Positions 1,219 to 39,211 of a stretch of 39,327 bases of DNA are shown here, one piece after another. Position 1 is the stretch's first letter; each line of letters opens with the position of its first letter. Position numbers and translations under genes: made by a program. Origin of the DNA: a phage; assembly GCA_033696785.1 (NCBI GenBank), contig GCA_033696785.1_4550.1; one strand, written 5' to 3'. Below the pieces are notes generated by a model, which was not told the origin of the DNA, ran no database searches, and worked only from the letters and a program-made list of their open reading frames with translations.

Positions 1219-1320
1219 ATGATAATTCTCCTATTCAATTGAAAGATAAAGTTTATTACTTACTGTACGCCCAATCCGTATGGACTGAAGTAATAGGGAA
1301 ACCTTGAGTCTGTCTCTTGG

Positions 1321-11501: not shown

Positions 11502-11969
11502 TTAACCGTGGTCGGAAGTGACCAGTTCATTGGTAGACAGCCAGCGTTGCAAGTCGAAACTTGGACACGCCTTTGGTGCTACGTCATGGTGTGCTTTTAT
11601 TTCTGCCTGAGGATACAGGACCTTCAGGTCAGCCAGCTTGTTGCGCAGGGAGTTCATCTGGGCTGGAGTGAAGCTAGCTTCAAACTTGCCCTTAGCGTCG
11701 ATTCCACCTACAAGGCAGACGCCTACGGACCGGGAGTTCCAATCCTTAACGTGTGACCCTACGACATTGACCGGGCGACCCTCTTCCACAGTACCATCGC
11801 GCTTGATGATAAAGTGGTAGCCTACGTCCAGCCAGCCTTGCTGCTTGTGCCACATACGGATGGTCTCTACCCCGATGTCCATCTCTGGCTTGGTAGCCGA
11901 ACAGTGAACGAAGATAGCGTCAGTCCGGGACCGTGGGTTGAACTGTACCTTACTTACCATTATTTCCAC
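11502..11969 (-). CDS. N-acetylmuramoyl-L-alanine amidase / lysozyme (T7 gp3.5 homolog)
   Basis: 155 aa with IFVHCSATKP, QGWLDVGYHFIIKRDGTVEEGR and HHDVAPKACPSFD, near-identical to T7 lysozyme. Confidence 0.95.
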   Translation of the reverse strand: MEIMVSKVQFNPRSRTDAIFVHCSATKPEMDIGVETIRMWHKQQGWLDVGYHFIIKRDGTVEEGRPVNVVGSHVKDWNSRSVGVCLVGGIDAKGKFEASFTPAQMNSLRNKLADLKVLYPQAEIKAHHDVAPKACPSFDLQRWLSTNELVTSDHG

Positions 11970-13224: not shown

Positions 13225-13657
13225 GCTTACGCCTCCAGTTAATAGCCTGTGGAGTAACTCCGAACATCTTAGCTAGCTCACTATTGGGCCGCGAGGACTT
13301 CAGGATGAACTCTACGTCTTCCTCGGTCAGCTTAGTCTTATTGTTAGCTTCTCCTATGAACACTGGAGGTTTCGACTTTCGCCCCCTCTCCATGCAGTCC
13401 CTCATGTTGTCCTTCTGCGTACCTAGTTCAAGGTGCTCAGGGTTACAGCAGCAGGGGTTGTCGCATTTATGTCTAACCAACATTCCATCAGGAATAGGAC
13501 CTATGAACTCCATGTATGACACACGATGTGCATAGTCCTGTTTCTGTCTTCCTATTGATATTCGACCGTATCCAGTAGGGAACCGGGAGCGTTGCCACTC
13601 CCAGCACCCGGAGGGAGAAACCTCAGAGTAATCCTCCAGTTTCTCTTTTAGATTCAT
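13208..13657 (-). CDS. HNH homing endonuclease (paralog 2)
   Basis: 149 aa with GCWEW..GYG and LVRHKCDNPCCCNPEHLELGT, plus C-terminal KLTEEDV helix. Confidence 0.88.
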   Translation of the reverse strand: MNLKEKLEDYSEVSPSGCWEWQRSRFPTGYGRISIGRQKQDYAHRVSYMEFIGPIPDGMLVRHKCDNPCCCNPEHLELGTQKDNMRDCMERGRKSKPPVFIGEANNKTKLTEEDVEFILKSSRPNSELAKMFGVTPQAINWRRKRDKNN

Positions 13658-14355
13658 TAGAAGTCGTAATCGCCACCAGAGTTGGAGTCGTCACCACCTT
13701 CGGAACCATCGTCACCAAAGTCATCAGACCCGAAGTCACCATCGGTTGACGCTTTGTAGCCGGTACCGAGGTCTTCATCATCGCCCCAGCCACCATCTCC
13801 ACCAGCACCATCACCTTTCCACTCCTTCAGTTCTACCAGAAGGCAGGACTCAAGCTGGAGCTTAACGCTTGCACCAGTCGCAGCGTTCCACTTGAACGGC
13901 AGGACTTTAAACTTGACCTTCAGCTTTGAGCCAGCGCCAATATTCGGGACGTCACGGATTAACTTAGCATCGGTGTCGTAGAACCGTAATACGATAGGCT
14001 CTGACTTACCATCCTTCAGGTAAGACGCGAAGCATTTAAACTTCAGGGTAACAGTACCGTCACCATTCTCAATCCAAGGCATGTCGCCTTCTCGTGGTTC
14101 AATAGGCTTCTTGCCACGCTGAACCTGAGGTGGGTTCTTCTCGTGGTCTGCGAGTGCTTTCGCATACGCATCGTCGTGAATCTTCTGTAAGACATCAATC
14201 ATCTTACGGACCTTCGGGTTGCTCAGGTCGAATGTCAGGTTAACCTTATGCTCACCACGCTCGTTAAACTTGGTGTCTGCTTTGTTCAGCCATGCGTAAG
14301 GCTCAACGATGCCAGCTACCGGAGTGGTGAAAGTCTTCAGTTGCTCTTTAGCCAT
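13657..14355 (-). CDS. Single-stranded DNA-binding protein (T7 gp2.5 homolog)
   Basis: 232 aa with GASVKLQLESCLLVEL and an acidic C-terminal tail ending DYDF (T7 ends DGDF). Confidence 0.95.
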   Translation of the reverse strand: MAKEQLKTFTTPVAGIVEPYAWLNKADTKFNERGEHKVNLTFDLSNPKVRKMIDVLQKIHDDAYAKALADHEKNPPQVQRGKKPIEPREGDMPWIENGDGTVTLKFKCFASYLKDGKSEPIVLRFYDTDAKLIRDVPNIGAGSKLKVKFKVLPFKWNAATGASVKLQLESCLLVELKEWKGDGAGGDGGWGDDEDLGTGYKASTDGDFGSDDFGDDGSEGGDDSNSGGDYDF

Positions 14356-17378: not shown

Positions 17379-20060
17379 TTAAGCGAATGCAAAGTCTGAA
17401 GACAAGATGTCTTCGATATTCAGTTTACCTTTCTTCGGAAGCTCAGGCAACTTGTCGCGCTGGCTCTCGTGAAGCTGGTATTCAAACTGCTCGTAGAAGT
17501 CAAGCAGCACATCGTTGTCGCGGTAGGTCTCGACCATCGTCTCACGGACACCACGGAACAGATACTCAGCGTCAGCCGGGATGGTCCCGAAGCTATCGTG
17601 AATCACTGCGAACGACATCACGCCATACTTGCGGTGAGTGTGGACTACAGTCTTGCGGAGGTGGCTACCATCTTGTGAGTGGACGAAGTTCGGGCTAATG
17701 CCTGACTCCTGCTTGTGCTTGTCAAGCTCTTTCTTCGTTCCTTTGTTGACTGTAGGCTGAAGGTTGAATGACCCTAAGAACATCAGGTTCAGACGAGTGG
17801 TATCCTTCTTGCGGTATTCCTGCCATACCGGGAAGCCATCAGGTGTTACCCAGTGAACCGGAAGGCATGGCTTAAGGATTTCTCCAGTCTTCTTGTCCTT
17901 CACTTCAGCAGCCAGCAGCTTGGCGGCACCTTGAAGCCACTTCATAGCGTCTACCGCAGCAACTACGGTCACACTCACAGCTTCCCAAATCATCTTAGCC
18001 ATGAAGCGAGACGCTTGGCTTGGCTCGGTGAACATAGCGCCAGACCCTGAGTCAATCGCTGGCATCACGATGTCCTCATAAACTTGGTCTGCGAAGCCAT
18101 ACTCTTTCGACCCATAGGCCAGAGTCATGACTGAACGCTTAGTGACCTTGCGTGACATACCGTAAGTCAGCCACTGCCGGGCCAGCTCTCGTGTCCCCAG
18201 CTTGAGACGTTCGGTAATCTCACCAGTTTTCTTGTCCTCGTGAGTTACCATCTCGTTGTCCGTGCCGTTAACCAGCAGGACTTTAAGCTCTTCCTCAATG
18301 CGGTCTGACACGATTCGGTAGATGTCTTGGACCTTACCGGAAGGCGTCAGGTTTACTGCATGTCCACCGATGTGATCACGAAGCATTGCGCTAAAGTGCT
18401 GAATCCCAGAGCAGGACCCATCGAATGCTATCGGCAGCGAGCAGGAGTAAGACAATCCGTGATGCATTACGCCAGCATACTCGAAGCAGAACGCTAGGAA
18501 GCAGAACGGAGAGTCTAACTTTCCCCACCACTCAATGCTGTCCATCGGTGCCTTAGCGGTAGCCATGATGTTGTCGTGGTTATCTTCCACCCACTTGATT
18601 CGCTCCTCGAAGGTTACTTTATCAATGCCCGCACAGTTTGCACCGTGGACCTTCAGCCATTTGAAACCATCAGCACCAATAGGCTTACCGACTGCCAGAG
18701 TCAGAAGACCCTTTTGCATGTCGTTACCCTGAGGGTTGAACATCGGCACAGCGTAGACGCGACCGCGCCAGTCCATGTTGTACGGAAACCAGATAGCCTT
18801 GAACTGAGAGAACTTGTTCGCTTGGTTAACGATAAAGCTCAGTGACAATCTACGTGACTGCCGGGCCTTCTCTCGGCGGTAGATACCAGCAGCAGCCTTC
18901 TTCCATGCCTTGAGTTCCTCTTCAGTCTCACCCGCATAGTCTTCAGGCTTCAGTGGCTCCATCTGAGGGATGTCGTCAATAGGCGTGTTGTTCAACTTCT
19001 CGACCATGTTCACCACGTCCAGAACCTTCTTGTTCACTTTCCAAGGTGTATTCTGGATGATGTTGACAGCGTCATAGACTTCAGGCATGTACACGTCTTC
19101 GTAACGTGCCACCGCAGACTTAGACCCTAAGCGAATCAATGGTAACGGTCTGCGACCTTTGGCCCAGTACCCACCGCCTACGACACCCGTCCACGGCTTA
19201 GGTGGAACGACGCAAGGCTGATAGACTGGTGCGATACCCGCAAGGCTGAATCCACGTTGTGCCATCTTCTTGACCCAGAAGCCTGACAGGTGGACCATCT
19301 CAACATCAGCCGCTGCATTGCCAGCACCATAACGCTTAAGCTCGACAAGTTGTGTTGACTGGATGACAATCTCAAGCATCTTGATGCCAACATGGACCGC
19401 CTCGGTCGGACTCCAAGTTCCCCACGCATCTTCCAGTTGACCCTGCTCCAGCATGGAGGCCTCAACCGCTTGCATGTAGGCTTTCTTGTAGGATGACCCA
19501 GCTCGCTTGTTCAGGTTCTCAGCTATCGCCTTCTTGAAGTGCTCCTTCTCCTTGTCACGGATGCGACCGAAGCGGATTTCGTCCTCAAGTGTGCGACCTA
19601 TCGCTGAGGCCATCGGTGTAATCGGTATCCCTTCAGGCTTGACCAGCTTGGAGAGGATGACCTTCAGTATAATAACTGCAGCAGACTCGCAAGAGATACG
19701 CAGAGAGCGGTCCTTGACGGCCTTCTCTTCAGTGCTCAACATGGTGAACGCTACGCTAGGACGAGAGGTTGACAGCTTCCCGTCTGGACCTTCATGCCAC
19801 TCCCTGACGGCTTGCGCAATCTTAGGGACCAGAGTCTGCATCAAAGGCTTGGCTACCTGATTGTCTGCCAGTTCCCCGCGCTCAGTCTGTCGCTCAAGGT
19901 TTTTGATGAAACGTCGCTCGCCTTCAGTGTATGCCTCATGCTCAAGCTGAAGCTGTTTGACTGCAAGATCTTGCCCGTAGTGGTCAGCCAGCAGGTTAAA
20001 CGGCTCAATGGCGTTCGACACATCAGAGAAGTCGTGTTTGTCAATAGAGATGACGCTCAT
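17379..20060 (-). CDS. Single-subunit DNA-dependent RNA polymerase (T7 gp1 homolog)
   Basis: 893 aa colinear with T7 RNAP, including catalytic motifs and C-terminal FAFA. Specificity-loop region reads FNLQPTVNKGTKKELDKHKQ (T7: FRLQPTINTNKDSEIDAHKQ). Confidence 0.98.
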   Translation of the reverse strand: MSVISIDKHDFSDVSNAIEPFNLLADHYGQDLAVKQLQLEHEAYTEGERRFIKNLERQTERGELADNQVAKPLMQTLVPKIAQAVREWHEGPDGKLSTSRPSVAFTMLSTEEKAVKDRSLRISCESAAVIILKVILSKLVKPEGIPITPMASAIGRTLEDEIRFGRIRDKEKEHFKKAIAENLNKRAGSSYKKAYMQAVEASMLEQGQLEDAWGTWSPTEAVHVGIKMLEIVIQSTQLVELKRYGAGNAAADVEMVHLSGFWVKKMAQRGFSLAGIAPVYQPCVVPPKPWTGVVGGGYWAKGRRPLPLIRLGSKSAVARYEDVYMPEVYDAVNIIQNTPWKVNKKVLDVVNMVEKLNNTPIDDIPQMEPLKPEDYAGETEEELKAWKKAAAGIYRREKARQSRRLSLSFIVNQANKFSQFKAIWFPYNMDWRGRVYAVPMFNPQGNDMQKGLLTLAVGKPIGADGFKWLKVHGANCAGIDKVTFEERIKWVEDNHDNIMATAKAPMDSIEWWGKLDSPFCFLAFCFEYAGVMHHGLSYSCSLPIAFDGSCSGIQHFSAMLRDHIGGHAVNLTPSGKVQDIYRIVSDRIEEELKVLLVNGTDNEMVTHEDKKTGEITERLKLGTRELARQWLTYGMSRKVTKRSVMTLAYGSKEYGFADQVYEDIVMPAIDSGSGAMFTEPSQASRFMAKMIWEAVSVTVVAAVDAMKWLQGAAKLLAAEVKDKKTGEILKPCLPVHWVTPDGFPVWQEYRKKDTTRLNLMFLGSFNLQPTVNKGTKKELDKHKQESGISPNFVHSQDGSHLRKTVVHTHRKYGVMSFAVIHDSFGTIPADAEYLFRGVRETMVETYRDNDVLLDFYEQFEYQLHESQRDKLPELPKKGKLNIEDILSSDFAFA

Positions 20061-22937: not shown

Positions 22938-24701
22938 CTAGTGGAACGTAACGTAGGACCCTAGCCCTAGCTCGTCGTCCGTATCATGAGTTACCCGGAC
23001 CCCATTGTCCCAGAACTCAGTGTGGATGGACTCGAAGCCTTTACGTGGGTTCTCCATCTGTTCCTCCAGCCACTCCTCAGTGACTTCACGTTCGCCTTTG
23101 TTGGCATCCTTAGCCATAGACTCAACGAAGAACTGTACACCGATAGCCAGCGCATCAAGTCGGTCATCGTGTGCCAAGGCTCCACGTTCGCGAGAGATAC
23201 GGGTCATCTGATAGAAGAGAGAGTAGATAGGGTTACGCACACCATCCTTGTCAGAGGCTGTCTGGTAGTCTTGGACGATAGCAGCAGCGTTAACGATAAG
23301 TCGGTGAGACCCCATGATAGGCTCCAGAACGTCACAGATGCGGAGTTCTTTCTGACCCTTACTCTTCACTTCAGTTACAGCAGCAGGATGGATACGGGCC
23401 GCTACAGGCTTGAATAGCTCAAGGTACATACCATCACCGAAGTTACCCTCAATGACGTATTCGTTTACCTTCCACTTACGACCAATCTTAGCCAATGCTT
23501 CCAGCGTAGAGTCTTCATAGCCACCTCGCATACCACCAACTTCCATAGCGAAGATGTAGCCGTTGAGCTGATACAGTACCGCATAGCCAGTTTCATCCTT
23601 ACCACGACCACTAGGGTCAATGACCAGAATCTTCTGGGTGTACGAACTGAAGGCAGAACCTACAGTCTGATACGTGTGGTATGAGTCACCCATGAGTCCA
23701 ACGTTAGGAACGTCCTCACGCTTGTTCTGAGGGTTTGGCAACCATTGGTAGACCATTGGGCTGGACGCTGGGTCCAAGTCGGCTACGATAAGGTCGCGGA
23801 GCTTCAGAGGGTACTTCTCAGCATCACTCAGGTTAGGGTTAAGCATGAACTGTAGAGCGAAGCCAGCTTTACCGTATGACAGCTCACGTTCCTTCAGGTC
23901 CGTATCATCGAATCGCACTTCATCGGTCGGACGCCAGTAGAAGGACTCAGGGTCCTCTTCCAGTTCTGCCTGAAGCATAGGCGCCAGACGGCCACCGTAA
24001 GACTGCCAGTCCTTCTTATCACGTGGATAACGAGCAGGCCAGATAGTAGTTGTGTACCCACGGCCTTCCAGCTCACGATACAGGGTCATCTCGTTCTGAG
24101 GAGTACCCAGATAGATGATTGTACCTCCCGGCTTCAGAATAGCGTCGAACTCTTTCACAAGCTCTGACAGACGGTCTCGTGCAGCCTGAGTCGCTGAGTT
24201 GTTTGGAACCTCCACGTCATCGGCAATCAGGATGTCAGCACGACTACCAGTCAACTGACCAGTGATACCAACAGACTTAACCGAAGGTGAGTGGTCTGGT
24301 TTGGCTGGTCCAACATCAAAGCTGATAACCGCATCTCGCTGCCCCTGCTTAGGTTTGAGTTCCTGAAGCTGAGGCATGAGGTCGATGATTCGCTTGATGA
24401 AGATGGAGTTAGCATCGGCTCGTTCCTTTGATGCCGACACAATCATGAACTTCAAGTCTGGGTTGTTCCATAGCTTCCAGACAACGAAGGCACACGTAAT
24501 GAAGGACTTCCCGATACCACGGAACGCCTGTAGGATGAAGCGCCTGTTGTCCCCAGCCGATAGTTTCTTCGCCATGTCAATCTGACAGCGAGTCGGGACT
24601 GGGAGTGACAGAGCTTTCCACAGGACGAACAGGAAGAACACGAAGTCTTCCTTCATACGTGTAGTCATTAGCGCCTGACGCGCCACTAAGTCTTTACTCA
24701 A
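22938..24701 (-). CDS. Terminase large subunit (T7 gp19 homolog)
   Basis: 587 aa with ATPase Walker A region (GIGKSF), DEAD-like ILIADDVE and a C-terminal nuclease domain. Confidence 0.97.
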
Positions 24702-25754: not shown

Positions 25755-28337
25755 TTACCTAAGCGCAATCCGCACACGCTTAATCACCACATCTCCCCCA
25801 AATGTACTAGGAGATGAATACCCGAACTTAATCTTAGACAGGAGCTCAGATAATAGGCTGGTAATCGCGTGGGTGTTGGTGTTCCCAATCTTGAAGCCAT
25901 CCACAGTACGGAGAGCTGCAACCTTGGCCTTTAAGTCCACATCATGGATTAACGTGTAGTCTCGACCAGCAGTCATAGGGAAAGACGCTGAGGACGTTAA
26001 GTCCGTTGCTTGACCTGAGCTGGAAGTCGTGGCTCGAAGCTGTAGACCTGCCGTCACCTGATACATAGAGCGGTCCCCTGTAGTGGCCTCACCGAGGGAT
26101 AAGACGTGCGCAGCTCCAGACGGTGCATACATCTCAATCTCTACAGTCAGACGCTTGAAGGACAGCCCCGGTTCCATGTAGTCTGCCATGTCGATATACG
26201 CCCGGTTGTTTGACCCGAAGCGCGCCCCTATAACCACGTTCTCAGAGTCCCGCACATATTCTATTGCACCGTTGATGAAGGTCAGCTTGGTGAACAGGTT
26301 GTATACGCCTCCAGATTTTGGACTCAACTTGTTGGACACCGCAAGTGTGCCAGACCTGAAGTCGGCCTCGATGTCGAACTTGAGGGGCTCTGGACCTGCT
26401 GAGTTGAACCAGTAGTCCAATGGCGGTGGATAGATTCTGGAGCTGGCCTTAGCAGTAGGGTGATTAAGACCGTTACCGCCGTCTATACTCGTACTGTAGA
26501 TGTCGTAATCCGTGAGAGACGCAGCTACCGGAACCTCTAATCCAGCCATGATGTCCACCCTAATCTGGCCTGTGCCTCCAATCCTCGGAGTGAACTTACC
26601 ACCGAAACGGATAATGTTTCCAGAAAATATAGGCTTTGTGTTCTTCCCAATGAACACCGTCAGTACATCACCATTAAGGGACATATGAATCTCTTGGTCG
26701 ACCACTGGCGCTGGTCCATCTCCTAACACGTTAAGCGTCATCCCCAGAGATGTCCCAGTGTAGTGCTGTAAACGCCACTTCCCTAACGCGCTTTTATATG
26801 AAAGGGTGACGAAGTTGTTCGTTAAAGACGATAGGTACATCTGGATGCCATTAACAAGGACAGCAGGGTCCACTACAGTGAGTCGTACCGAGTAGCACGG
26901 AACTTTCGACGTATAGGTATACGGGAGGTCTACCAGAGTCGATATTGTGGAGCGACGGAAGCTAAATACGCAGGGGTCTACCCCATCACGCAGAGACTTA
27001 AAGTGGCGATGGATGTCTATGAAGCTATACCCCGCAAACTTAGCATACGAACGGGTCCATCCAGCAATAGCGTCGCGTCCAGACTGTTGTTCCTCTGTGG
27101 CAGTGGCCGGGTTAACGGTAGACGGTAAGATGTTCGTGCAGAACACCAGCTCAGGTTCACTAGAGATAGACCGAAGTTCTTCGACCATCTTGTAGAACAC
27201 TGGCTGCTGGAAGTTACCTACGTCCCATCCCGGACCATCGTTCATGCCGAACGCGATGAAGATTACATCAGGCTTGGCCTCTTCGATATACGACATCCAG
27301 CGACGTGATCTATCAGTGAACCACGGGTATCCATCGCCAAGTCTTGCAGGCGGCTCATCACGGCCTAAGTCATAATATCGCATCCCGCCGATGGCTCGGT
27401 TGATAAACTCTGCCGACGGATTAGTCTCGTGGACCTTGCGTCGAAGATATGACTCAAATAGGGACGTGATGTTTGCGGTGTCGATGTTGTAGAAGCTGCT
27501 CAGTGAGTCCCCAACCAGAAGGACACGACAACCATGAGTCGCTAATCTGGCCTTAGCCTTAGCTGTAGCCGTACCGAAGGACATCGGAGAGTCTTCTGCG
27601 TGAAGTGACTCAGCTAGGGTCTGACCAGTGGCTGTTCCAATTCGCCCAGCACCAGAGGTCTGACCGAGGTCACTACGGAGACTAGCGTCGGCAACATTAA
27701 CCCACTTACCAGCGCCGACCCCACCAGCGGTTGCTGGAGTCGAACCGGGAGCAACTACCTTAGGTACAGCCCCATCCCAGCGGTAATAACTGAGGTCGGC
27801 ATCATTCCAGAGAACCTCGTTCCACTCTTTGATTGTGTACCCTAATGTGAAGGATCCAACGGGCGGACGAACCGTTACATAACCACCCACGCCCATGTTT
27901 CGAATCTTCTCAGCGAGACGTGCGGCCTCATTCTCAGAAGCCTTGGCTTGGTTAGCAGACGTCAGGGCTGAGTCAGCATATTCCTTCGCAAGGTCTGCTG
28001 TCTGGTCGCGGCCCTCTTCAGCGATGTGGATTGCCTGAAGTTCTGCGTTGGTCAGGTCACTTGCGGTCAGTACCGAACCATCACGAAAAGCAACCACTAA
28101 GTCTGTTGCCGTCTGCCTACGAACCTGAACAACGTCAAATCCAGTCTGAGACACTAAGACCTCTATGGTCGTCGGGTTCAGGAACCTATAGTCTTTATTT
28201 GGAGTCAGAACCTTATTAAGGGCCTGATTACTAGTACGTACTAGGGTGACTACCACAAAGGACCGAGACAAGTAGTCAAACGGTATCTTGAACTGAGTTG
28301 GCCCTGACGGGTAGTTATTAATCGTAATCTTAGCCAT
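25755..28337 (-). CDS. Tail fiber protein (T7 gp17 N-terminal adaptor fused to an SGNH/GDSL hydrolase-like domain and C-terminal beta-rich region)
   Basis: 860 aa; first ~150 aa match the T7 gp17 attachment domain (KIPFDYLSRSFVVVTL, YRF, LTASDL, IHIAEEGRD). Residues about 270-450 carry RVLLVGDSLSS, IFIAFGMNDGP and FIDIHRHF. Confidence 0.9.
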   Translation of the reverse strand: MAKITINNYPSGPTQFKIPFDYLSRSFVVVTLVRTSNQALNKVLTPNKDYRFLNPTTIEVLVSQTGFDVVQVRRQTATDLVVAFRDGSVLTASDLTNAELQAIHIAEEGRDQTADLAKEYADSALTSANQAKASENEAARLAEKIRNMGVGGYVTVRPPVGSFTLGYTIKEWNEVLWNDADLSYYRWDGAVPKVVAPGSTPATAGGVGAGKWVNVADASLRSDLGQTSGAGRIGTATGQTLAESLHAEDSPMSFGTATAKAKARLATHGCRVLLVGDSLSSFYNIDTANITSLFESYLRRKVHETNPSAEFINRAIGGMRYYDLGRDEPPARLGDGYPWFTDRSRRWMSYIEEAKPDVIFIAFGMNDGPGWDVGNFQQPVFYKMVEELRSISSEPELVFCTNILPSTVNPATATEEQQSGRDAIAGWTRSYAKFAGYSFIDIHRHFKSLRDGVDPCVFSFRRSTISTLVDLPYTYTSKVPCYSVRLTVVDPAVLVNGIQMYLSSLTNNFVTLSYKSALGKWRLQHYTGTSLGMTLNVLGDGPAPVVDQEIHMSLNGDVLTVFIGKNTKPIFSGNIIRFGGKFTPRIGGTGQIRVDIMAGLEVPVAASLTDYDIYSTSIDGGNGLNHPTAKASSRIYPPPLDYWFNSAGPEPLKFDIEADFRSGTLAVSNKLSPKSGGVYNLFTKLTFINGAIEYVRDSENVVIGARFGSNNRAYIDMADYMEPGLSFKRLTVEIEMYAPSGAAHVLSLGEATTGDRSMYQVTAGLQLRATTSSSGQATDLTSSASFPMTAGRDYTLIHDVDLKAKVAALRTVDGFKIGNTNTHAITSLLSELLSKIKFGYSSPSTFGGDVVIKRVRIALR

Positions 28338-28386: not shown

Positions 28387-28409
28387 CGTTTCCTATAGTG
28401 ATAGTTTAG
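28387..28409 (-). promoter_or_regulatory. Phage RNAP promoter (phi17 equivalent)
   Basis: Plus strand tttcctatagtgatagtttagtc, overlapping the gp16 stop. Confidence 0.85.
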
Positions 28410-31400
28410 TCCTTGATGTGGATACCTTGCTCCTCAAACGTTCCAAGAAGCAGCTTCTGGGTAATCGGGTCGTTCGGGACAAGTTCGCGGAACGTGTTAT
28501 ACATCCCAGTCATGTAGTCTCGCTCATTGACACGAGTATCTGCCTTGAGGTAGCCAGCCAAGTTGTAAGCCGAAGCGCCAACGTTAGCAGCATATCCGAA
28601 AGCTGGAACCTGCTCAAGGAAGTTACCGACCACGTTCATCACCGGGTCACTTTTCGCAGCGCCATAGGGAATAGCACGTTCAGGCTTCTCTGTAGGCGAA
28701 CGAGGTAGAATAGACGAACGGAGCATCTTAGTGTCCTCATACCCAGCGATGCCCCCCAGAATGTTAGCTACCCCAAGTGGTCCACCAAGGTGTGAACTAC
28801 GTGATAGAGCTGCATATCCAATCATAGTCGGGTCCAGAGCTTGCTTGAGGTATTCACGGTCTCTACCATCCTGCATAGCGTAAGCCTTGACGTGAGCCTG
28901 AGCCATGTAGTAGATACCAGCCAGACCCATAGACATCACGGTAGATAGAGCAGCATCCATCGCTCGGTTGTTCTTCGTGGCGTTATAGAAGGTACGCATG
29001 GTTCGCCCATTGATGGACTTGATGACGAAGTTCTTAAACTGAAGGACAGTCTTAGCTAGAGGGCCATAAGCCTTGGCATCCATGTTAGACAGCTTATGAG
29101 GTCGTAGTAACGTTTCATCAGCGATGGTGTCACCCATACGCCACAGGTCCATAGCCCTTGGGTCCTGACTGAACGACTTCTTATCCTTGATGGTGTACTT
29201 CCCGTCTGGGCCACGAGTCACTGACTCACGGATTAGGGACTTAATGCCCTTCCACTGCTCGTCAGAGATACCAGCGGTCTTCAGCCATCGGTCATCGAAC
29301 TTACGCTTACTACCAGTCAGGCTATGCTCCACGATGTCAGACAGGAAGCCTTGACGTCCAGCATCTAACAGGTAGTTGGTCGTACCGTTGAGGAGTTTAG
29401 TGAACGGAGAGCGTACTGCAAGTTCACCAGTGTAATACTTGGCAGTCCCCAGAGCTGTAGCTGTACCACGACCGAGGTCACTGTAAGACCGCAGACGGTC
29501 AATGACATCCTGTTTAGACGGACGGATTGAGTCATCAAGTTCCTTACCGAAGAGAACATTGTGAAGGTCCTTAATCTCTGAGGCTCCGACCTTCTTGTTA
29601 CGGAAGGCTAGGTCACGGAACATCGGGACTCCATGTAGCAGCGCCCGAACGTTACCACGAGCCAGCATACCACCAATCTCCGTTAAGTTCTGAACACCCA
29701 TGTAGGCATTCTTAGCGAAGAACGATAGGTCTGTCATTGTGCGCATCACGGTAGCGAAGGCCGCATCATCAGCACCATCACGTCGAGCACGACCAGTTAG
29801 AATCTTCAGAGTGTCACGTAAGGTAGATACTTCACCTTTCAACTTACCGTCATCCCCAGCCTTGTTCATCATGGTCTCAACCAAGTCCTTCATGTCCTTC
29901 GTGGTTTTGCCTGTACCAGCCATGATAGCAATATCTCCATTAACTCGACGGTTGTAGGCAGGGACAATCTTGTCCATGTCCCACTCACGAAGGTTGTTGA
30001 CACTGAAGGTCTGACCGTTAGGTAGGACGATTGACATATCGCTATCGAACAGGTTACGAGCCTCAAGGAAGCTGTTGTTCTCCAGACCAACCAGACCGTT
30101 GATGTTCTCTTCCATTACGGATGAACGTTCGAACTGCTCGGTGTGAGAGATACCGTAAGCCTTATCGTTGGCGTACTTATCGACCGCAGCAGCAAGTCCC
30201 TCTGGAGTCAACGTAGGGTCAGCCTCTAAGAGTGCCTCGTCCACGCGTTTCTTGACTTCAGGTCGAGACGCATAGCTGGTAAGCCATGACTTCTTGATGG
30301 CCTCCTGCAACGCCTCTGGACTCCCAAGCTCCTTGATGTACAGCTCCTTCATCTGTTTGCTATACACATGAGGGACGTATGTTCCCTTGAAGTGGCTACC
30401 CGGAAAGATAGACTGAGCGTCTGGGCGACCAAACATAGCTGGGTTCTCCATCATCTCACGCTTGGCGTCGAACTGGTTCTTCAGCAGGTCATAGACTTTC
30501 AGTTCTCCCGGAGTCAGTTCAGCCTTCAGGTTTCCGCTGCCATCTTCGATAGCCATAGACACGCGCTGGTAGATGTCCTGACGGAATGCTCCAGAGTCTC
30601 GCCAGAATGCTGTCTGGAAGTACGGGTCCTTTAGTGCCTCAGTAACCGCATTGTCGATGTCGTTGTAGAACCGATGGTCCACAGCACGAAGTCTCTCGAA
30701 CACGTCTGACGCAGTGGTCCCGATTTTACCTGAGGCCCCAGACTGCATACCAGTCGGTGAACGCACTAAGTCAGCAGCTACTCCACGAATCTCAGGGTTC
30801 TCAGACCGAAGCAGCTTCAGACCAATCTCGGTAAGTCCACCAAGGTTCACACCAGCAGCGGCACGTTCCGGCTCAATCACTTCGTCAAAGACTTGACGTG
30901 TCTTAGGGTTCAGAGGGTTCTCACCAATCAGGATTGAACCATCTTCTAATCGTACACTTCCCGGCTCATTCGGCACGTCAGCGAACTTAACGCCTTGGTG
31001 ACTAAAGGTCTCCTCTCCTTCACGGATTGGCATACGCGACAGGTCTTGACCATCAACATTACGTGCAGTCTCGCGAGCTTCCAGACGTATAGCTGGACCA
31101 GCGAACTCGTTAGTGTTGCGACCTAAGGCTCTGCCTAGTCCATCAGCTATAGCAGTCATACCACCACCGAAGAGAGCACCGCCAATAATGGCCTCAGCAA
31201 CATGAGCGTCCCCACCAGCAACTGAGGTTCTAGCAATCTCGGATGCCCCAGCCAGAGCACCAGACTGAGCAGCCACAGTGAACATCTTGTTGATTAGCTT
31301 CCCACCTTTACCTACCTGCCCAGCAATAGGAACGTAGGTCAGAGGGTCCACGCCAGCACCAATCACACCAGCCGCCAGTTGAGCGCCAGTCCCAGCCTTT

Positions 31401-32293
31401 GCCTTCTCTTGGTCCAACTTCTGGTTCTCAAGCGCCAAGTTAATCAGCTCTGTCAGATTCTGAGGAGAACCGCCAGTAATGACTCCGTAATACTGAGGCA
31501 GAACCCCAGCGTTACGAATCTGGTCCAGCTCCTCACGAGACCACTTATGGTTGTTCCATCGGGTTGGGTTGAACACATCGCCAATGACATCCAGTGAGTC
31601 CTCAGTCTGACCAGCTCGTATAGCCACGCCGACCATAGAGTTCTTCACTTCAGCTTCTGTAGCCGCACCGAAACCGAACCACGTAGAGCGGTCCTCTCGT
31701 TCCTGCATGGTCTCTCCAGTAGCCTTATAGAACATCTCACCGAACGATTCGTTGGGAGCTTCAGGTGCTTGACCCTCAATGTTCAGACCAGCAGCGGTCG
31801 GAAGGTTCTCACCCAGAGCCACTTTAGGTTTAGCCTTGAGTCCTTCCGTGAGTGCGTCAAATACGGTAGCGCTTACTGGTGGAGTCTTTGGGCTGATACC
31901 GTTGAGTGCTCTTGCTACCCCCTGTTGGTAGACTTCAGGGTCGTACCGGGAGCCTGTCTCGTGGTAGCCTATAGCCTCAGACAGAGAGGCGAGGACGTCA
32001 GGGTTCGTCAGGTCGAGACTTTGTGTTGCTGGAATGCCGGTCGCAGCCACAACAGAGTTGATGTAGGACTGAGTGTCATTCTCATTAGGCGGCGCCCAGC
32101 GGTTGATAATCTTCTCGATGGAGTCATAACCTTGGCGACCGTAGCTTTGAAGGTTTTTAGCTAAAGCTCGTACCCCAGATTCAGGACTATCGAATATAAC
32201 GAATGCACCATCATCCCCTACTGCACCTTCCCATTGGTCTTTGGACTTACGGATATTTCCCGGATTTGAATTTCTTACTCCACGTGTTGCCAT
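28406..32293 (-). CDS. Internal virion protein D (T7 gp16 homolog) with a divergent N-terminal domain
   Basis: 1295 aa; body colinear with T7 gp16 (SPTGMQSGASGK, KGTYVPHVY, NNSFLEARNLFDSD, AYNRRVNGDIAIM). The first ~130 aa (NSNPGNIRKS...WEG) lack the T7 transglycosylase motif I recall. Confidence 0.93.
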   Translation of the reverse strand: MATRGVRNSNPGNIRKSKDQWEGAVGDDGAFVIFDSPESGVRALAKNLQSYGRQGYDSIEKIINRWAPPNENDTQSYINSVVAATGIPATQSLDLTNPDVLASLSEAIGYHETGSRYDPEVYQQGVARALNGISPKTPPVSATVFDALTEGLKAKPKVALGENLPTAAGLNIEGQAPEAPNESFGEMFYKATGETMQEREDRSTWFGFGAATEAEVKNSMVGVAIRAGQTEDSLDVIGDVFNPTRWNNHKWSREELDQIRNAGVLPQYYGVITGGSPQNLTELINLALENQKLDQEKAKAGTGAQLAAGVIGAGVDPLTYVPIAGQVGKGGKLINKMFTVAAQSGALAGASEIARTSVAGGDAHVAEAIIGGALFGGGMTAIADGLGRALGRNTNEFAGPAIRLEARETARNVDGQDLSRMPIREGEETFSHQGVKFADVPNEPGSVRLEDGSILIGENPLNPKTRQVFDEVIEPERAAAGVNLGGLTEIGLKLLRSENPEIRGVAADLVRSPTGMQSGASGKIGTTASDVFERLRAVDHRFYNDIDNAVTEALKDPYFQTAFWRDSGAFRQDIYQRVSMAIEDGSGNLKAELTPGELKVYDLLKNQFDAKREMMENPAMFGRPDAQSIFPGSHFKGTYVPHVYSKQMKELYIKELGSPEALQEAIKKSWLTSYASRPEVKKRVDEALLEADPTLTPEGLAAAVDKYANDKAYGISHTEQFERSSVMEENINGLVGLENNSFLEARNLFDSDMSIVLPNGQTFSVNNLREWDMDKIVPAYNRRVNGDIAIMAGTGKTTKDMKDLVETMMNKAGDDGKLKGEVSTLRDTLKILTGRARRDGADDAAFATVMRTMTDLSFFAKNAYMGVQNLTEIGGMLARGNVRALLHGVPMFRDLAFRNKKVGASEIKDLHNVLFGKELDDSIRPSKQDVIDRLRSYSDLGRGTATALGTAKYYTGELAVRSPFTKLLNGTTNYLLDAGRQGFLSDIVEHSLTGSKRKFDDRWLKTAGISDEQWKGIKSLIRESVTRGPDGKYTIKDKKSFSQDPRAMDLWRMGDTIADETLLRPHKLSNMDAKAYGPLAKTVLQFKNFVIKSINGRTMRTFYNATKNNRAMDAALSTVMSMGLAGIYYMAQAHVKAYAMQDGRDREYLKQALDPTMIGYAALSRSSHLGGPLGVANILGGIAGYEDTKMLRSSILPRSPTEKPERAIPYGAAKSDPVMNVVGNFLEQVPAFGYAANVGASAYNLAGYLKADTRVNERDYMTGMYNTFRELVPNDPITQKLLLGTFEEQGIHIKD

Positions 32294-32724
32294 GTCTTTC
32301 TCCTCAAGATATTTCTAATAGAAACCGTACTCACTCCATATCGTTCCGCTAAGAGTGAAACCTTTAGGCCGCTGGACCTTATGTCTCTCACGATTTCTTC
32401 AGTGAGCTTAGATACTCCTATGGAGCATCCTGACGCTTGGCGACCTCTAGTCACCTTATCCTTTATGTTGTCAGCTTGGGTGCCGACTTCAAGGTGGCTT
32501 GGGTTTATACAGGACGGGTTGTCGCATTTATGACGAACAACGTATCCATCGGGTATAGGACCATTAGCAAGCTCGTAGGCAAGTCTATGTGCTCCATATT
32601 TCACCCTATTAATCATTATCCTTCCATAGCCGGATTTATCAATGCTTCCGGTGAATCGGATACAGCCAGACTCTTCGGCTACTGACAGTTCTGCCAGTCT
32701 CTCACTGGCTGTCCCGTTCTTCAT
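32275..32724 (-). CDS. HNH homing endonuclease (paralog 3) in the structural module
   Basis: 149 aa with GCIRF..GYG and YVVRHKCDNPSCINPSHLEVGT, between the gp15 and gp16 genes. Confidence 0.88.
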   Translation of the reverse strand: MKNGTASERLAELSVAEESGCIRFTGSIDKSGYGRIMINRVKYGAHRLAYELANGPIPDGYVVRHKCDNPSCINPSHLEVGTQADNIKDKVTRGRQASGCSIGVSKLTEEIVRDIRSSGLKVSLLAERYGVSTVSIRNILRRKTWQHVE

Positions 32725-32726
32725 GT

Positions 32727-35009
32727 TTACTCCTTACCGATTAAGGTGTTTGCGATACCCTCCAGTGAGACGTCATTATACATCCCACCGCGCTTCTCGA
32801 TGTTGGACTCTCGGTCAGCTCGACGTTTGTCACCAGCAGCTTTAGTCACGACGATACGCGCTCGCTTGTTAGCGTCACGTTCTGCCTGAGCGTATGCGGC
32901 ATCTTGTGCCTTCTGCTGTTGTTCGCGGTAGAGTTTACCTACAAGTTCTTTATCGTATCGAATACGAATAGTCCCCGTAGCGTCTTGGAGGAAGATAGAG
33001 CCGTTCTGTTCAACAACGGACAACTGAGAGTTCACTACCCAAGGGTTGGCCTTAATGAGCTGCTGACGAGCGGTGTCGATAATATCTCGACCCACCTGCC
33101 ACGACTCTGGGTTGTCCCCAACCATAAGCTGGTGCTTGGACACCATGCCGATTGACTTACCGTCAGAACCTTCAGACTGGAACGTTACTGTGTTCTCATT
33201 CAGCCAGCGTTGAGTCTGCTGAGTTGCAGCGTCAGCGTTACCTGTACGATAGTACCATGAGTCCCAGACCTTACGAGCACTTGAGTCCAGAGACGTTGGG
33301 AGACGAGACAACTGTGTGTTCTTGGAGTCGTTCTTCAACTCCTGCCACGCCTTGTCTGACTCCATGCGCATCTCACGGCTTTGACTTGCAGCTTGCTTAT
33401 CAGCTTCAATCATCGTCTGAGGGCCCAGACCCATCTTGTCCATCTGGTCGAACGTAGAGAACAACTGAGCTTGGTCAGGATACAGAGCTGCAAAACTTGA
33501 AGGGTCCTGAGTGTAGGCACGACGAAGAGACTCGAAGCGTTGCATCTTGTCTGGGTCGTACTGCCCACGGATGACCGCAGCTTGCCACTCACCAGCAGCG
33601 TCCTGAGTCAGCGTCTGGAAGGCATTACGGAACGGACCATTGTTAGTGTCAGCCCTTAACAATGCCACCTTCTGCGCGTCTTTAGCAGCCTCAGGGATGT
33701 CCATCTGGTCAATCTGCTGTAGCTTGGCAGCCGCATAGTTGTTCATGTCCGAACGTTTGAACTCGCCTGTAGCATCTGAGACCGGAAGGTCCTCATAATT
33801 GGTGGACACGTTGTCCCCAGCCAGACGTCGCTGATACACTTGGTCTATGACCAGTTGCTTGTTCTTGGTCTGGATTAACTTAGTGTTCTCCTTCGCCTGT
33901 TCAGCAGACTTACGCTTTACCGCTTCAAGCAAGCTGGCTTCGGCATTAATAAGCATCTGACGCTGAGGCGTGAGTTCTTCACCCGGTTGAAGCAGGTTGT
34001 TCTGCTCCTTGAGTTTCTGAATCTGGGCCAGACCGATGGTCGGGTCATCCTGAAGAATCGCAGACTGAACGCCTAAAGCCAAGTCTTCCTGATACTTAGC
34101 AACCAGCTTGTACTCAGTGCCTTGTGCCTCAACAATAGCAGCGTTGAAGACATCAGGTCCTACAATCTCTTCGACTGTAGCATCCACATCGTTAAGGGTG
34201 ATTCGCTCACCTCGTACTTGTTGTAAGAAGTTTGAGCCGCCCGACTTCTGGATTGCATCACGGACCGTCTGGGTAATGATCTCCCGTGCTCGCTGGTCCG
34301 AAGGGATAGCAGCAGTAGTCAGTCCATCACGGAGGTATGCCATGAAGGTCTTGCCGGACTCAGGTGAACGCATCAGGTCGCCATCGTTCAGGAATGAGTT
34401 CATCTCAATACGAGTGTTCAACATTGCTGTCTCTTCAGCCTGCTTGCTGAAATACTTATTGAAAGACCCGTAGATAGCGATGTTACGGTCTGTGATGTTA
34501 TCGTTGAACCCGCGCTGGAAGAACTCGTCTGTAGGGTTAATACCCGCCTCTTCAGCATAGGACTTAGCGGCGTCCTGAAGGCGCTGGTGACGATACTCTT
34601 CCATGTCCTGACGTGTACGGAACTCACCGTTCTGAATCTTAACGTTAATCTCGTCATCCACAGCAAAGGCAGCGTTACGACCTGTCTTGACTCGAAGTGC
34701 TTCCATAGCGTAAGGGTCATCCTGATACAGCAATGTTCCGTTCTGGATAGCCTCACGTCTTTGCTGAGGTGTCAGCTTACGGATAATCTCGTTAGACCGC
34801 TCGTCAGCTCTGGTCTTATCCTCTTCCTTGAACTGCTTGTACAATCCAGTCCCAGACTCAACGAAGTTGGTTAACGCACGAGCCAGACCGGAGTCGCCAG
34901 TCGGAGCCTGAACGCTGGCTGCTTGATAGTTGACGGCGATAGTTTTACCCGGCGCTCTGCCGCGACCCATAGTCCGATTAGTCAGAGCTGATTCAATATT
35001 ACTAGCCAT
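32727..35009 (-). CDS. Internal virion protein C (T7 gp15 homolog)
   Basis: 760 aa, alpha-helical and Gln-rich, in the gp15 position. Confidence 0.88.
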   Translation of the reverse strand: MASNIESALTNRTMGRGRAPGKTIAVNYQAASVQAPTGDSGLARALTNFVESGTGLYKQFKEEDKTRADERSNEIIRKLTPQQRREAIQNGTLLYQDDPYAMEALRVKTGRNAAFAVDDEINVKIQNGEFRTRQDMEEYRHQRLQDAAKSYAEEAGINPTDEFFQRGFNDNITDRNIAIYGSFNKYFSKQAEETAMLNTRIEMNSFLNDGDLMRSPESGKTFMAYLRDGLTTAAIPSDQRAREIITQTVRDAIQKSGGSNFLQQVRGERITLNDVDATVEEIVGPDVFNAAIVEAQGTEYKLVAKYQEDLALGVQSAILQDDPTIGLAQIQKLKEQNNLLQPGEELTPQRQMLINAEASLLEAVKRKSAEQAKENTKLIQTKNKQLVIDQVYQRRLAGDNVSTNYEDLPVSDATGEFKRSDMNNYAAAKLQQIDQMDIPEAAKDAQKVALLRADTNNGPFRNAFQTLTQDAAGEWQAAVIRGQYDPDKMQRFESLRRAYTQDPSSFAALYPDQAQLFSTFDQMDKMGLGPQTMIEADKQAASQSREMRMESDKAWQELKNDSKNTQLSRLPTSLDSSARKVWDSWYYRTGNADAATQQTQRWLNENTVTFQSEGSDGKSIGMVSKHQLMVGDNPESWQVGRDIIDTARQQLIKANPWVVNSQLSVVEQNGSIFLQDATGTIRIRYDKELVGKLYREQQQKAQDAAYAQAERDANKRARIVVTKAAGDKRRADRESNIEKRGGMYNDVSLEGIANTLIGKE

Positions 35010-38517: not shown

Positions 38518-38645
38518 GTGCCCTCCAGATACTTAGCAGCGTTTAGTAGAATCTCACGGGAGTCCTTGAAGCCTCCTAGAGACTTATTGCAGTGCCTGCA
38601 GAGAAGACCTCTAACCTCGCCAGTTGCGTGGTTGTGACTAGCCAT
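38493..38645 (-). CDS. Endonuclease VII-like (HNH superfamily) mini-ORF
   Basis: About 50 aa hand-translated: MASHNHATGEVRGLLCRHCNKSLGGFKDSREILLNAAKYLEGTCRLSRKA. The H.H.TG.VRGLLC..CN..LG block is the Endonuclease_7 signature as I recall it. Not in the ORF track. Confidence 0.45.
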   Translation of the reverse strand: MASHNHATGEVRGLLCRHCNKSLGGFKDSREILLNAAKYLEGTCRLSRKA

Positions 38646-39211
38646 TAGTCCCTCCCGATGTCAGACATCATGTTGTAGCGACCAGTGTCCATCTCATACT
38701 CCATAACCTGCTGATAGAGTTCTGCTTCCTGCTCACGAAGGTATAGCTCTGACTCTGGGCTACCGAAGAACTTAGCGTTGAACTCACGGCTGGCTTTAGT
38801 GACGATGTAGTCCCTGAAGACCACAGGCATCTCAGAGAATGGTTTCATCTCCACAAGCTCTACCGTGATCGGGTCGGTGAAAGTGGTTGACTGAGTGGAT
38901 AGGTCGTACAGGTATCCACCCATGTTGCTGTAGTAGCTGGTGGCCCCAGCGGTCATTACACGGAGGTATGACGGCAGGAATCGAATCCTATTGTCTTGGA
39001 CATCAGGTGTCAGGACAGCAGCTTCGTTAATGTTAAAGTTCCATCCTTTAGCTTGGACCTGACGATTGACACGATGCAGGATACGTTGAGCATTCGAGAC
39101 GTCAGCGTTACCTTCGTCAAGCTGTAGTACTGCTGGTTCACCGATAGCAGCTAACATATCGTTGATGGCATCTAAGTCATCGTTAGCATTCAGTGGAATG
39201 TATTGAGACAT
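38645..39211 (-). CDS. Tail tubular protein A (T7 gp11 homolog)
   Basis: 188 aa with LAAIGEP, ANA.RIL, GYLYDL.TQST and FRDYIVTKASREFN matching T7 gp11. Confidence 0.95.
   Translation of the reverse strand: MSQYIPLNANDDLDAINDMLAAIGEPAVLQLDEGNADVSNAQRILHRVNRQVQAKGWNFNINEAAVLTPDVQDNRIRFLPSYLRVMTAGATSYYSNMGGYLYDLSTQSTTFTDPITVELVEMKPFSEMPVVFRDYIVTKASREFNAKFFGSPESELYLREQEAELYQQVMEYEMDTGRYNMMSDIGRD

What the first reader, a model, noticed from the sequence alone, without database searches (positions are those of the whole stretch)
31904..32293. Internal virion protein D has a non-T7 N-terminal domain
The body of the 1295-aa protein is colinear with T7 gp16, but the first ~130 residues (MATRGVRNSNPGNIRKSKDQWEGAVGDDGAFVIFDSPESGVRALAKNLQSY...) do not carry the lytic transglycosylase motif T7 has there. 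The ejected cell-wall enzyme may have been swapped for a different hydrolase or lost.
Basis: partly seen in the sequence, partly recalled or inferred. Interest (0 to 1): 0.45.

Follow-up and report, generated by a model that had tools for sequence, protein, structure and literature searches.

The report
Enc34-type cell-wall enzyme on gp16
In this K1F-like relative of phage T7, the ejected internal virion protein gp16 has, in place of T7's lytic transglycosylase, a different and already characterised cell-wall-cutting domain (the Enc34 endolysin type), so the enzyme was exchanged rather than lost and the finding is a fairly ordinary domain swap.

Summary
The 1295-aa ORF (window 28406-32293, minus strand) is 54% identical to T7 gp16 from residue ~125 to the end. 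Its first ~125-130 residues have no similarity to T7's SLT lytic transglycosylase domain.

The N-terminus is neither lost nor of unknown type. It is a complete PHA02564/Enc34-type muralytic domain:
- It matches the crystal structure of the Enc34 endolysin catalytic domain (PDB 7Q47) by sequence at E = 4e-13.
- The proposed catalytic signature is conserved (Trp66, Tyr77, Glu112 = Enc34 Trp79, Tyr95, Glu131).
- It is under purifying selection (dN/dS about 0.07-0.12).

The same N-terminus occurs in about 220 deposited Kayfunavirus genomes, in a PDB cryo-EM entry (9vvp) and in Minipunavirus gp16. The fold also occurs in many unrelated virion proteins.

The most likely function is local peptidoglycan cleavage in the periplasm during genome ejection, probably as a hydrolase (N-acetylglucosaminidase) rather than a lytic transglycosylase. 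GenBank labels such as 'lytic exotransglycosylase' on these proteins therefore look like unsupported transfers from T7.

One side observation: the DNA encoding exactly this domain is a local divergence island within the genus. It lies next to an HNH homing endonuclease gene inserted between genes 15 and 16.

Verdict: new member of a known kind; modest interest.

The parts
28406..32293 (-). Gene 16 homologue (internal virion protein D / ejectosome protein), 1295 aa
   Evidence: ORF, translation. 54% identity to T7 gp16 over residues 125-1295. phrog_342, E = 0. Full-length match to PDB 9vvp_L 'Gp29' (1295 aa) and to T7 gp16 chains 7eyb/7k5c/6yt5 from residue 125 on.
31898..32293 (-).
32249..32275 (-). 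Family signature motif R-N-x-N-P-G-N-I-R (residues 7-15, RNSNPGNIR)
   Evidence: N8, N10, N13 and I14 are invariant, and R7, P11, G12 and R15 are at least 90% conserved, in 36 diverse homologues. Coordinates.
32096..32098 (-). Trp66 codon, equivalent of Enc34 Trp79 (substrate-positioning aromatic)
   Evidence: Aligned (chain index is +1 relative to the paper's numbering). At least 90% conserved. Role as proposed in PMC8943055.
32063..32065 (-). Tyr77 codon, equivalent of Enc34 Tyr95
   Evidence: Invariant, aligned. Role as proposed in PMC8943055.
31958..31960 (-). Glu112 codon (motif Y-H-E-T-G), equivalent of the proposed catalytic Glu131 of Enc34
   Evidence: E112 and G114 invariant, H111 at least 90% conserved. 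Aligned to Enc34 R-H-E-N-G. Catalytic assignment by superposition in PMC8943055.
31676..31897 (-). Disordered linker plus the region colinear with the T7 gp16 'molecular tape' (window residues ~133-206, T7 ~157-228); homology to T7 resumes at residue 125
   Evidence: pLDDT below 50 for residues 133-152. The BLASTP alignment starts at window 125 / T7 152. T7 domain limits (1-156 transglycosylase, 157-228 tape) from PMC8954989.
32275..32724 (-). HNH homing endonuclease ORF (149 aa) inserted between genes 15 and 16; its last 19 nt overlap the start of gene 16
   Evidence: Pfam HNH_3, E = 2e-17. phrog_59, E = 1e-38. Sequence overlap shown. Absent from K1F, P7124, SFP20, ASO2B, EcpYZU01, HC13 and RDN8.1; present in CR44b ('7.7C'), EFA-1, EPr2, CHRF_10022 and GA2A.
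32727..35009 (-). Gene 15 homologue (internal virion protein C, periplasmic tunnel), 760 aa; carries no lysin domain
   Evidence: phrog_1339, E = 0. No Pfam family.
11502..11969 (-). Separate gp3.5-type amidase endolysin, showing that the gp16 N-terminus is not the phage's lysis enzyme
   Evidence: phrog_822 amidase, E = 7e-80.

Best explanation
The first ~130 residues of this gp16 are an intact virion-associated peptidoglycan-degrading domain of the PHA02564/Enc34 type. It is an all-helical, circularly permuted, very distant relative of the lysozyme alpha-lobe, with proposed catalytic Glu112 assisted by Trp66 and Tyr77. It is fused to a T7-type gp16 body at precisely the boundary where T7 carries its SLT lytic transglycosylase domain. 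By analogy with T7, gp16 is packaged in the internal core and ejected through the tail at infection. Its N-terminal domain then sits in the periplasm on the outside of the gp15 tunnel and opens the murein locally so that the ejectosome can reach the inner membrane. The chemistry is probably hydrolytic (N-acetylglucosaminidase, GH73-like) rather than lytic transglycosylation. This is a non-orthologous replacement of one glycan-cleaving module by another. It is fixed in the genus Kayfunavirus and shared with Minipunavirus. SHOWN here: the absence of SLT, family membership by sequence and predicted fold, conservation of signature residues, purifying selection, and wide distribution. INFERRED: enzymatic activity of this particular protein, its bond specificity, and its role and conditional requirement during ejection.
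Against: No enzymatic assay exists for any gp16-borne copy in the literature I could search. Pfam and NCBIfam have no model for it. In the sections of the Enc34 paper that I read, the catalytic residues were assigned by structural superposition and not by mutagenesis. Bond specificity is unsettled: M4Lys data were read as glucosaminidase plus endopeptidase, and one figure legend of that paper says muramidase. [quoted passage not shown] Some orthologues vary near-invariant positions (EcpYZU01 and Lilpapawes have Tyr for Trp66; SFP20, GA2A and Lilpapawes have Ile for Pro11).
Confidence: 0.85

Rival explanations
1. The domain is a lytic transglycosylase after all, as many GenBank records label it. 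It would cleave the MurNAc-GlcNAc bond with formation of 1,6-anhydro-MurNAc like T7 gp16, using a single catalytic Glu on a diverged scaffold.
Confidence: 0.12
2. The domain is retained only as a structural 'wing' of the periplasmic tunnel or as a core-packing element, and no longer cleaves peptidoglycan (functional loss, the reader's second option).
For: [quoted passage not shown] There is no activity data for any gp16 copy.
Against: The residues that line the proposed active-site groove (W66, Y77, H111, E112, G114 and the NxNPGNI motif) are the most conserved positions of the domain across homologues that are free-standing enzymes. dN/dS is about 0.1. A purely structural role would not need the Glu/Trp/Tyr signature.
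Confidence: 0.05
3. The domain is a dual-activity or endopeptidase-type enzyme that attacks the peptide cross-links, as suggested for M4Lys. This would give K1F-like phages a qualitatively different way through the sacculus.
For: The M4Lys muropeptide analysis showed loss of cross-linked dimers and a D-Glu-mDAP-cleaved product in addition to GlcNAc release.
Against: The Enc34 structure shows no feature suggestive of a peptidase site, and the authors consider it unlikely. No Cys/His/Ser or metal-binding constellation is among the invariant residues.
Confidence: 0.05

Closest known systems
Hafnia phage Enc34 ORF39 endolysin catalytic domain (PDB 7Q47; CDD family PHA02564 'V virion protein') and Salmonella phage BSPM4 M4Lys
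   Different: [quoted passage not shown] Here the domain is the N-terminus of a 1295-aa ejected internal virion protein of a podovirus, and a separate amidase endolysin does the lysis. The window domain is shorter; the Enc34 alignment needs several insertions.
T7 gp16 N-terminal SLT lytic transglycosylase domain (Pfam PF01464, catalytic Glu37; PDB 7K5C/7EYB)
   Same: Same position in the same protein, immediately upstream of the conserved 'molecular tape' and body. Same presumed job of breaching the murein during ejection.
   Different: No detectable sequence or profile similarity and no SLT structure among structural neighbours. The proposed catalytic Glu lies near the C-terminal end of the domain (E112) instead of near the N-terminus (E37). 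The likely chemistry is hydrolysis at the GlcNAc bond rather than transglycosylation.
gp16 of Escherichia phage K1F and other Kayfunavirus; PDB 9vvp chain L 'Gp29'
   Same: Orthologues: same length (1295 aa), 94-98% identity in the body (residues 201-1295) for K1F, CR44b, P7124, ASO2B and SFP20 (88% for EcpYZU01) and 80-95% in the N-terminal domain.
   Different: The window's N-terminal domain is a distinct allele. The best DNA match is 89.5%, against 93-95% for the whole gene. The window also carries an HNH gene upstream that K1F lacks.
Other virion-associated copies of the fold: Minipunavirus (Morganella phage Lilpapawes) gp16, Providencia phage PSTRCR_120 internal virion protein D, Uetakevirus BUCT554 842-aa protein, Pseudomonas Mu-like phage DMS3 'V', Vibrio phage NO16 GP11
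   Same: The same domain is used as a virion-borne module.
   Different: Carrier proteins, position within the carrier (N-terminal, internal) and virus morphotypes all differ. Identity is 30-50%.
SP6 gp36 and phiKMV gp36 internal virion proteins with lysozyme domains
   Same: Precedent that podovirus ejection proteins carry interchangeable muralytic modules (table in PMC5380687; 'mosaic' conclusion of PMC8954989).
   Different: Those carry classical lysozyme-type domains and are not colinear with T7 gp16 to the same degree. I did not compare them here.

Membership tests
PHA02564 / Enc34-type muralytic domain | Significant sequence similarity to the Enc34 ORF39 catalytic domain | tested here: met
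   phmmer E = 4.4e-13 over query 3-122 / chain 7-139. 245 database homologues at E <= 1e-3, many named 'structural protein'.
PHA02564 / Enc34-type muralytic domain | All-helical fold of 7Q47 (helical bundles around a groove, no beta-lobe) | tested here: met
PHA02564 / Enc34-type muralytic domain | Conserved signature Trp79 / Tyr95 / Glu131 (Enc34 numbering) | tested here: met
   W66, Y77 and E112 align to them (chain index +1). Y77 and E112 are invariant and W66 is at least 90% conserved in 36 homologues.
PHA02564 / Enc34-type muralytic domain | Peptidoglycan-degrading activity | not testable with these tools
   Shown for Enc34 ORF39deltaC and M4LysdeltaTMD only.
SLT / GH23 lytic transglycosylase (T7 gp16 N-terminus, PF01464) | Match to the Pfam SLT model | tested here: not met
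   No Pfam family in the window protein even at E <= 1 (only a noise hit to HCNGP), whereas T7 gp16 gives SLT at E = 1.7e-31.
SLT / GH23 lytic transglycosylase (T7 gp16 N-terminus, PF01464) | Alignable N-terminal catalytic Glu (T7 Glu37) and homology to the T7 domain | tested here: not met
   BLASTP finds no alignment for residues 1-124. hhalign probability 0.2%. tblastn of the T7 domain against the whole window finds nothing below E = 8.
SLT / GH23 lytic transglycosylase (T7 gp16 N-terminus, PF01464) | Goose-type lysozyme / SLT fold | tested here: not met
GH73 N-acetylglucosaminidase | Sequence-family membership (Pfam Glucosaminidase) and alpha/beta lysozyme fold with a beta-lobe | tested here: inconclusive
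T7 gp16 / internal virion protein D (ejectosome) | Colinear homology of the body, including the C-terminal region | tested here: met
   54% identity from window 125-1295 to T7 152-1315. phrog_342 E = 0. PDB T7 gp16 chains matched from residue 125.
T7 gp16 / internal virion protein D (ejectosome) | Gene order 13-14-15-16-17 | tested here: met
   gp13 PF11090, gp14 PF24072, gp15 phrog_1339, gp16, then tail fibre with PF03906. One HNH gene is intercalated between 15 and 16.
T7 gp16 / internal virion protein D (ejectosome) | Presence in the virion core and ejection into the cell | not testable with these tools
   Indirect only: the CR44b orthologue is annotated 'matches in mass spectrometry analysis', and a 1295-aa orthologue is in PDB entry 9vvp with 4 chains.

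The most novel reading that the evidence does not exclude
The lysin module of gp16 is not just an ancient one-off swap but an actively exchanged cassette. Within Kayfunavirus, the DNA for codons 1-~130 is a sharply bounded divergence island. Divergence there is 11-17%, against about 7% in the next kilobase. For the window versus K1F, CR44b, P7124 and ASO2B, dS is 0.8-1.0 in the island, against 0.02-0.09 in the adjoining linker. The island has several allele classes, all under purifying selection. It abuts the insertion site of an HNH homing endonuclease gene whose 3' end overlaps the gene 16 start. Homing-endonuclease-driven gene conversion, or selection for cleavage-immune synonymous variants, could be what keeps this module mosaic. 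Alternatively, diversifying pressure from host cell-wall variation or inhibitors could maintain multiple lysin alleles. Either way the domain boundary would be a preferred recombination joint, which would explain how SLT and Enc34-type modules were exchanged in the first place.
Probability: 0.3. Interest if true: 0.5.

Novelty: new member of a known kind. Interest (0 to 1): 0.3.

Why it matters
1. Annotation. Hundreds of K1F-like gp16 proteins are labelled 'lytic (exo)transglycosylase' by transfer from T7, although the T7 enzyme domain is exactly the part they lack. The correct assignment is an Enc34/PHA02564-type lysin, probably with different bond specificity.

2. Mechanism. The swap gives a natural experiment for the ejectosome field. 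Two closely related ejection machines (54% identical bodies) use unrelated-looking murein-cutting heads. Domain-exchange and E112 mutants could therefore test what the enzyme contributes to genome delivery, for example at low temperature or on stationary-phase cells.

3. Application. Kayfunaviruses are used against K1 E. coli, Salmonella Typhi, Enterobacter and other pathogens. A small (about 130 aa), soluble, Gram-negative-active lysin module from their virions is a candidate for enzybiotic engineering, as is already being tried with the Enc34 domain (PMC11657235, title only).

None of this overturns current understanding. Mosaic exchange of muralytic modules in ejection proteins is already an accepted theme.

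Tried and rejected
- Pfam and NCBIfam scans of residues 1-160 and of the full protein returned nothing usable. The only hit was HCNGP at E = 0.05, which I treated as noise.
- I looked for residual homology to the T7 SLT domain by BLASTP, hhalign and tblastn over the whole window, and found none. This also rejects the idea that the SLT domain had moved to gp15 or elsewhere in this genome.
- I considered that the HNH endonuclease insertion caused or accompanied the domain swap. I rejected this because K1F, P7124, ASO2B, SFP20, EcpYZU01, HC13 and RDN8.1 lack the HNH gene but have the same domain.
- I considered that the divergence island is strictly tied to HNH presence. The association is only partial. 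The HNH-minus phages K1F, P7124, ASO2B and RDN8.1 form one tight allele class (94-97%), but HNH-minus HC13 carries the allele closest to the window (89.5%), and HNH-plus phages differ among themselves by 7-22%.
- The K1F genome paper (my guess PMC1317022) is not held. No paper was found for PDB 9vvp. No paper in the library links Enc34/PHA02564 with gp16 or 'internal virion protein'. I therefore cannot say whether the swap has been remarked on in subscription-only literature.

Full report
**1. The observation**

The finding's interval (31904-32293) read on the plus strand gives only stop-ridden nonsense. On the minus strand it is codons 1-130 of a 1295-codon ORF, 28406..32293. The quoted peptide is its true N-terminus, preceded by a GAGGAG Shine-Dalgarno sequence.

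The neighbourhood is a T7-type structural operon on the minus strand:
- gp11 (Tube) and gp12 (nozzle)
- gp13 (PF11090) and gp14 (PF24072)
- gp15 (phrog_1339)
- a 149-aa HNH endonuclease
- the 1295-aa protein
- a tail-fibre/tailspike gene

Megablast identifies the window as a K1F-like phage of the genus Kayfunavirus, 91-95% identical over gene 16 to EFA-1, LNA5, CR44b, K1F and others.

BLASTP against T7 gp16 gives a single colinear alignment from window residue 125 (T7 152) to the C-terminus, 54% identity over 1182 columns, and nothing before it. Pfam finds SLT (PF01464) at residues 15-127 of T7 gp16 and no family at all in the window protein. hhalign of the N-terminal family profile against the T7 N-terminus gives probability 0.2%. 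tblastn of the T7 domain against the entire window finds nothing.

**2. What the N-terminus is**

Pfam and NCBIfam have no model for it, but the region is far from orphan.

It matches an internal module of several PHROG families annotated as endolysin, head protein, tape measure and 'tail injection transglycosylase'. tblastn finds it in 784 phage records:
- About 220 Kayfunavirus records at 80% identity or more.
- At 30-50% identity: Minipunavirus gp16, a Uetakevirus 842-aa protein, Mu-like Pseudomonas phages (DMS3 'V'), 9g/Seurat-like and Chi-like 'endolysins', non-tailed Vibrio phages and even Microviridae.

Against the PDB it hits two entries. One is 9vvp_L 'Gp29', a 1295-aa orthologue present as four chains. 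The other is 7q47, the catalytic domain of the Hafnia phage Enc34 endolysin, at E = 4.4e-13.

The Enc34 paper (PMC8943055) reports the following:
- The domain belongs to the CDD family PHA02564.
- It has demonstrated muralytic activity on permeabilised E. coli, P. aeruginosa and Hafnia.
- It has a proposed catalytic signature of Glu131, Trp79 and Tyr95, superimposable on GH73 and GH23 enzymes.

The related M4Lys domain degrades purified peptidoglycan and releases GlcNAc (PMC7143992).

**3. Tests of membership**

*Conserved residues.* In the phmmer alignment (the chain index runs one ahead of the paper's numbering) the three signature residues align with window W66, Y77 and E112. In an alignment of the window domain with 35 diverse homologues (38-52% identity), N8, N10, N13, I14, W21, G23, F34, G40, R42, A43, A67, P68, N72, Y77, E112 and G114 are invariant. 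W66 and H111 are at least 90% conserved.

*Predicted structure.* An AlphaFold2 model built on that alignment is confident for residues 1-132 (mean pLDDT 84.6, most blocks above 90) and disordered for residues 133-152.
- Foldseek against the PDB finds 7q47 as the only significant hit (E = 7.5e-10, TM 0.72).
- In BFVD the 18 significant neighbours are all 'virion protein', 'internal virion protein D' or similar.

The domain is therefore a member of the Enc34/PHA02564 family and fails every test for membership of the SLT family.

**4. Is it maintained?**

I computed Nei-Gojobori estimates against six Kayfunavirus orthologues:

| Region | dN/dS | dS |
|---|---|---|
| Codons 1-132 | 0.07-0.12 | 0.8-2.3 |
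| Body (201-1295) | 0.04-0.09 | 0.19-1.12 |

The domain is under purifying selection as strong as that on the body, even though dS there is very high. Loss of function is therefore unlikely.

The window also encodes a separate gp3.5-type amidase (11502-11969, phrog_822, E = 7e-80). The gp16 domain is thus not the phage's lysis endolysin but a virion-borne enzyme. Several relatives support a virion location:
- The CR44b orthologue was detected by virion mass spectrometry.
- A 1295-aa orthologue is in the 9vvp entry.
- NO16 GP11 is a related protein that the NO16 paper lists in its virion structural atlas.

**5. How it most likely works**

In T7, gp16 residues 1-156 form the transglycosylase 'wings' on the gp15 periplasmic tunnel. 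Residues 157-228 are a 'molecular tape' that staples gp15 subunits, Glu37 is catalytic, and the activity is needed for genome internalisation when peptidoglycan is highly cross-linked (review PMC8954989).

In the window protein, homology to T7 resumes at T7 residue 152. This is exactly the end of that domain, and the tape and everything downstream are conserved.

I therefore infer that the Enc34-type head occupies the same place and does the same job: local opening of the murein during ejectosome assembly. I also infer that it probably does so by hydrolysis, as an N-acetylglucosaminidase, following the M4Lys and Enc34 evidence, rather than by lytic transglycosylation. This last point is the least certain. 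A lytic transglycosylase (rival 1) or a dual glycosidase/endopeptidase (rival 3) is not excluded.

**6. Evolution**

The T7-type SLT head is found in 1139 phage records, spanning phages of Klebsiella, Escherichia, Yersinia, Pseudomonas, Pectobacterium and others. The Enc34-type head is the minority form.

Morganella phage Lilpapawes (Minipunavirus) gp16 aligns end to end with the window protein at 48% identity. Its head (48%) is as diverged as its body (50%). This fits an old replacement inherited vertically by both genera, rather than recent independent captures.

**7. An unexpected detail at exactly these coordinates**

Among 13 Kayfunavirus genomes, the DNA of gene 16 nt 1-390 is about twice as diverged (11-17%) as the following kilobase (about 7%).

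For the window against K1F, CR44b, P7124 and ASO2B, identity is 60-90% up to nt ~390. It then jumps to 98-100%, and it is 95-97% in the last 300 nt of gene 15. dS is 0.8-1.0 in the head, against 0.02-0.09 in the adjoining linker.

The best database match to the window's head DNA is only 89.5%. The head is thus a sharply bounded mosaic segment with several allele classes.

Immediately upstream, the window carries an HNH homing endonuclease gene (32275-32724) whose last 19 nt overlap the start of gene 16. It is present in only some relatives. The association between HNH presence and head allele is suggestive but imperfect: HC13 lacks the HNH gene yet has the allele closest to the window. I report this as an unexplained lead, not a conclusion.

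**8. Comparison with what is known, and novelty**

- The domain family, its fold and its activity are published.
- The gp16 fusion exists in hundreds of deposited genomes and in a PDB entry.
- Modular exchange of muralytic domains among podovirus ejection proteins is an accepted theme.
- I found no paper in the searchable library that identifies the K1F-type gp16 head as an Enc34/PHA02564 domain.
- Many records call it a lytic (exo)transglycosylase by transfer from T7.

The finding is therefore a correct, checkable observation about a new member of a known kind. Its value is mainly for annotation and for designing ejectosome experiments. I score interest at 0.3.

Noticed in passing
window 32275-32724 (minus): A 149-aa HNH_3 homing endonuclease with a C-terminal helix-turn-helix is inserted between genes 15 and 16. 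Its stop codon lies 19 nt inside gene 16. It is present in CR44b ('7.7C'), EFA-1, EPr2, CHRF_10022 and GA2A, and absent from K1F, P7124, ASO2B, SFP20, EcpYZU01, HC13 and RDN8.1.
   Followed up: partly
window 31904-32293 (minus), compared with L004-L015: The DNA encoding the gp16 lysin head is a sharply bounded divergence island within the genus. Identity to K1F, CR44b, P7124 and ASO2B is 60-90% for nt 1-390, then 98-100% from nt ~391, and dS is 0.8-1.0 against 0.02-0.09 next door. There are several allele classes, and the link with the HNH insertion is only partial.
   Followed up: partly
window 13208-13657 (minus): A second HNH_3 endonuclease ORF (149 aa, E = 1e-16) sits between the gp2.5 single-strand-binding protein gene (13657-14355) and the gp3 endonuclease I gene (12775-13224), overlapping both ends. 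This genome therefore carries at least two free-standing homing endonuclease genes.
   Followed up: no
window 25755-28337 (minus): The gene 17 product (860 aa) combines the T7 tail-fibre N-terminal adaptor (PF03906), a TSP1/Gp66 tailspike N-domain (PF18668) and a GDSL/SGNH esterase domain (PF13472), instead of the K1F endosialidase. This suggests a deacetylase/esterase-type tailspike and a host other than K1 E. coli.
   Followed up: no
whole window: The window looks like a complete genome of about 39.3 kb on the reverse strand, circularly permuted. The major capsid gene is at 175-1218 and gp11 at 38645-39211, with the RNA polymerase at 17379-20060 and the terminase at 22938-24701. The physical genome ends presumably lie between about 20.5 and 22.9 kb.
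   Followed up: no
GenBank records of relatives (H5, H8, H11, H12, H26, L014, L015): Orthologues of this gp16 are widely annotated as 'peptidoglycan lytic exotransglycosylase' or 'peptidoglycan transglycosylase' (for example EPr2, citing EXLYS_BPT7), although they lack the T7 SLT domain. This is probably annotation transfer from the conserved body.
   Followed up: yes
L010 (MT350292.1): The closest full-length relative is deposited as 'Enterococcus phage EFA-1' (flagged UNVERIFIED_ORG, host E. faecalis), but it is a typical Kayfunavirus of enterobacteria. The host assignment is probably wrong.
   Followed up: no
L006 (EcpYZU01) and L007 (P7124), gene 16: In these two relatives the annotated gp16 CDS is 4458 nt (about 1485 aa), roughly 190 aa longer than in the window and K1F. 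The reading frame stays open beyond the usual stop, suggesting a C-terminal extension or a fusion with the downstream gene.
   Followed up: no
window 12320-12778 (minus): A 152-aa ORF lies between gp3 and the amidase gene. It has no Pfam hit and matches only PHROGs of unknown function (phrog_16385, E = 3e-51).
   Followed up: no
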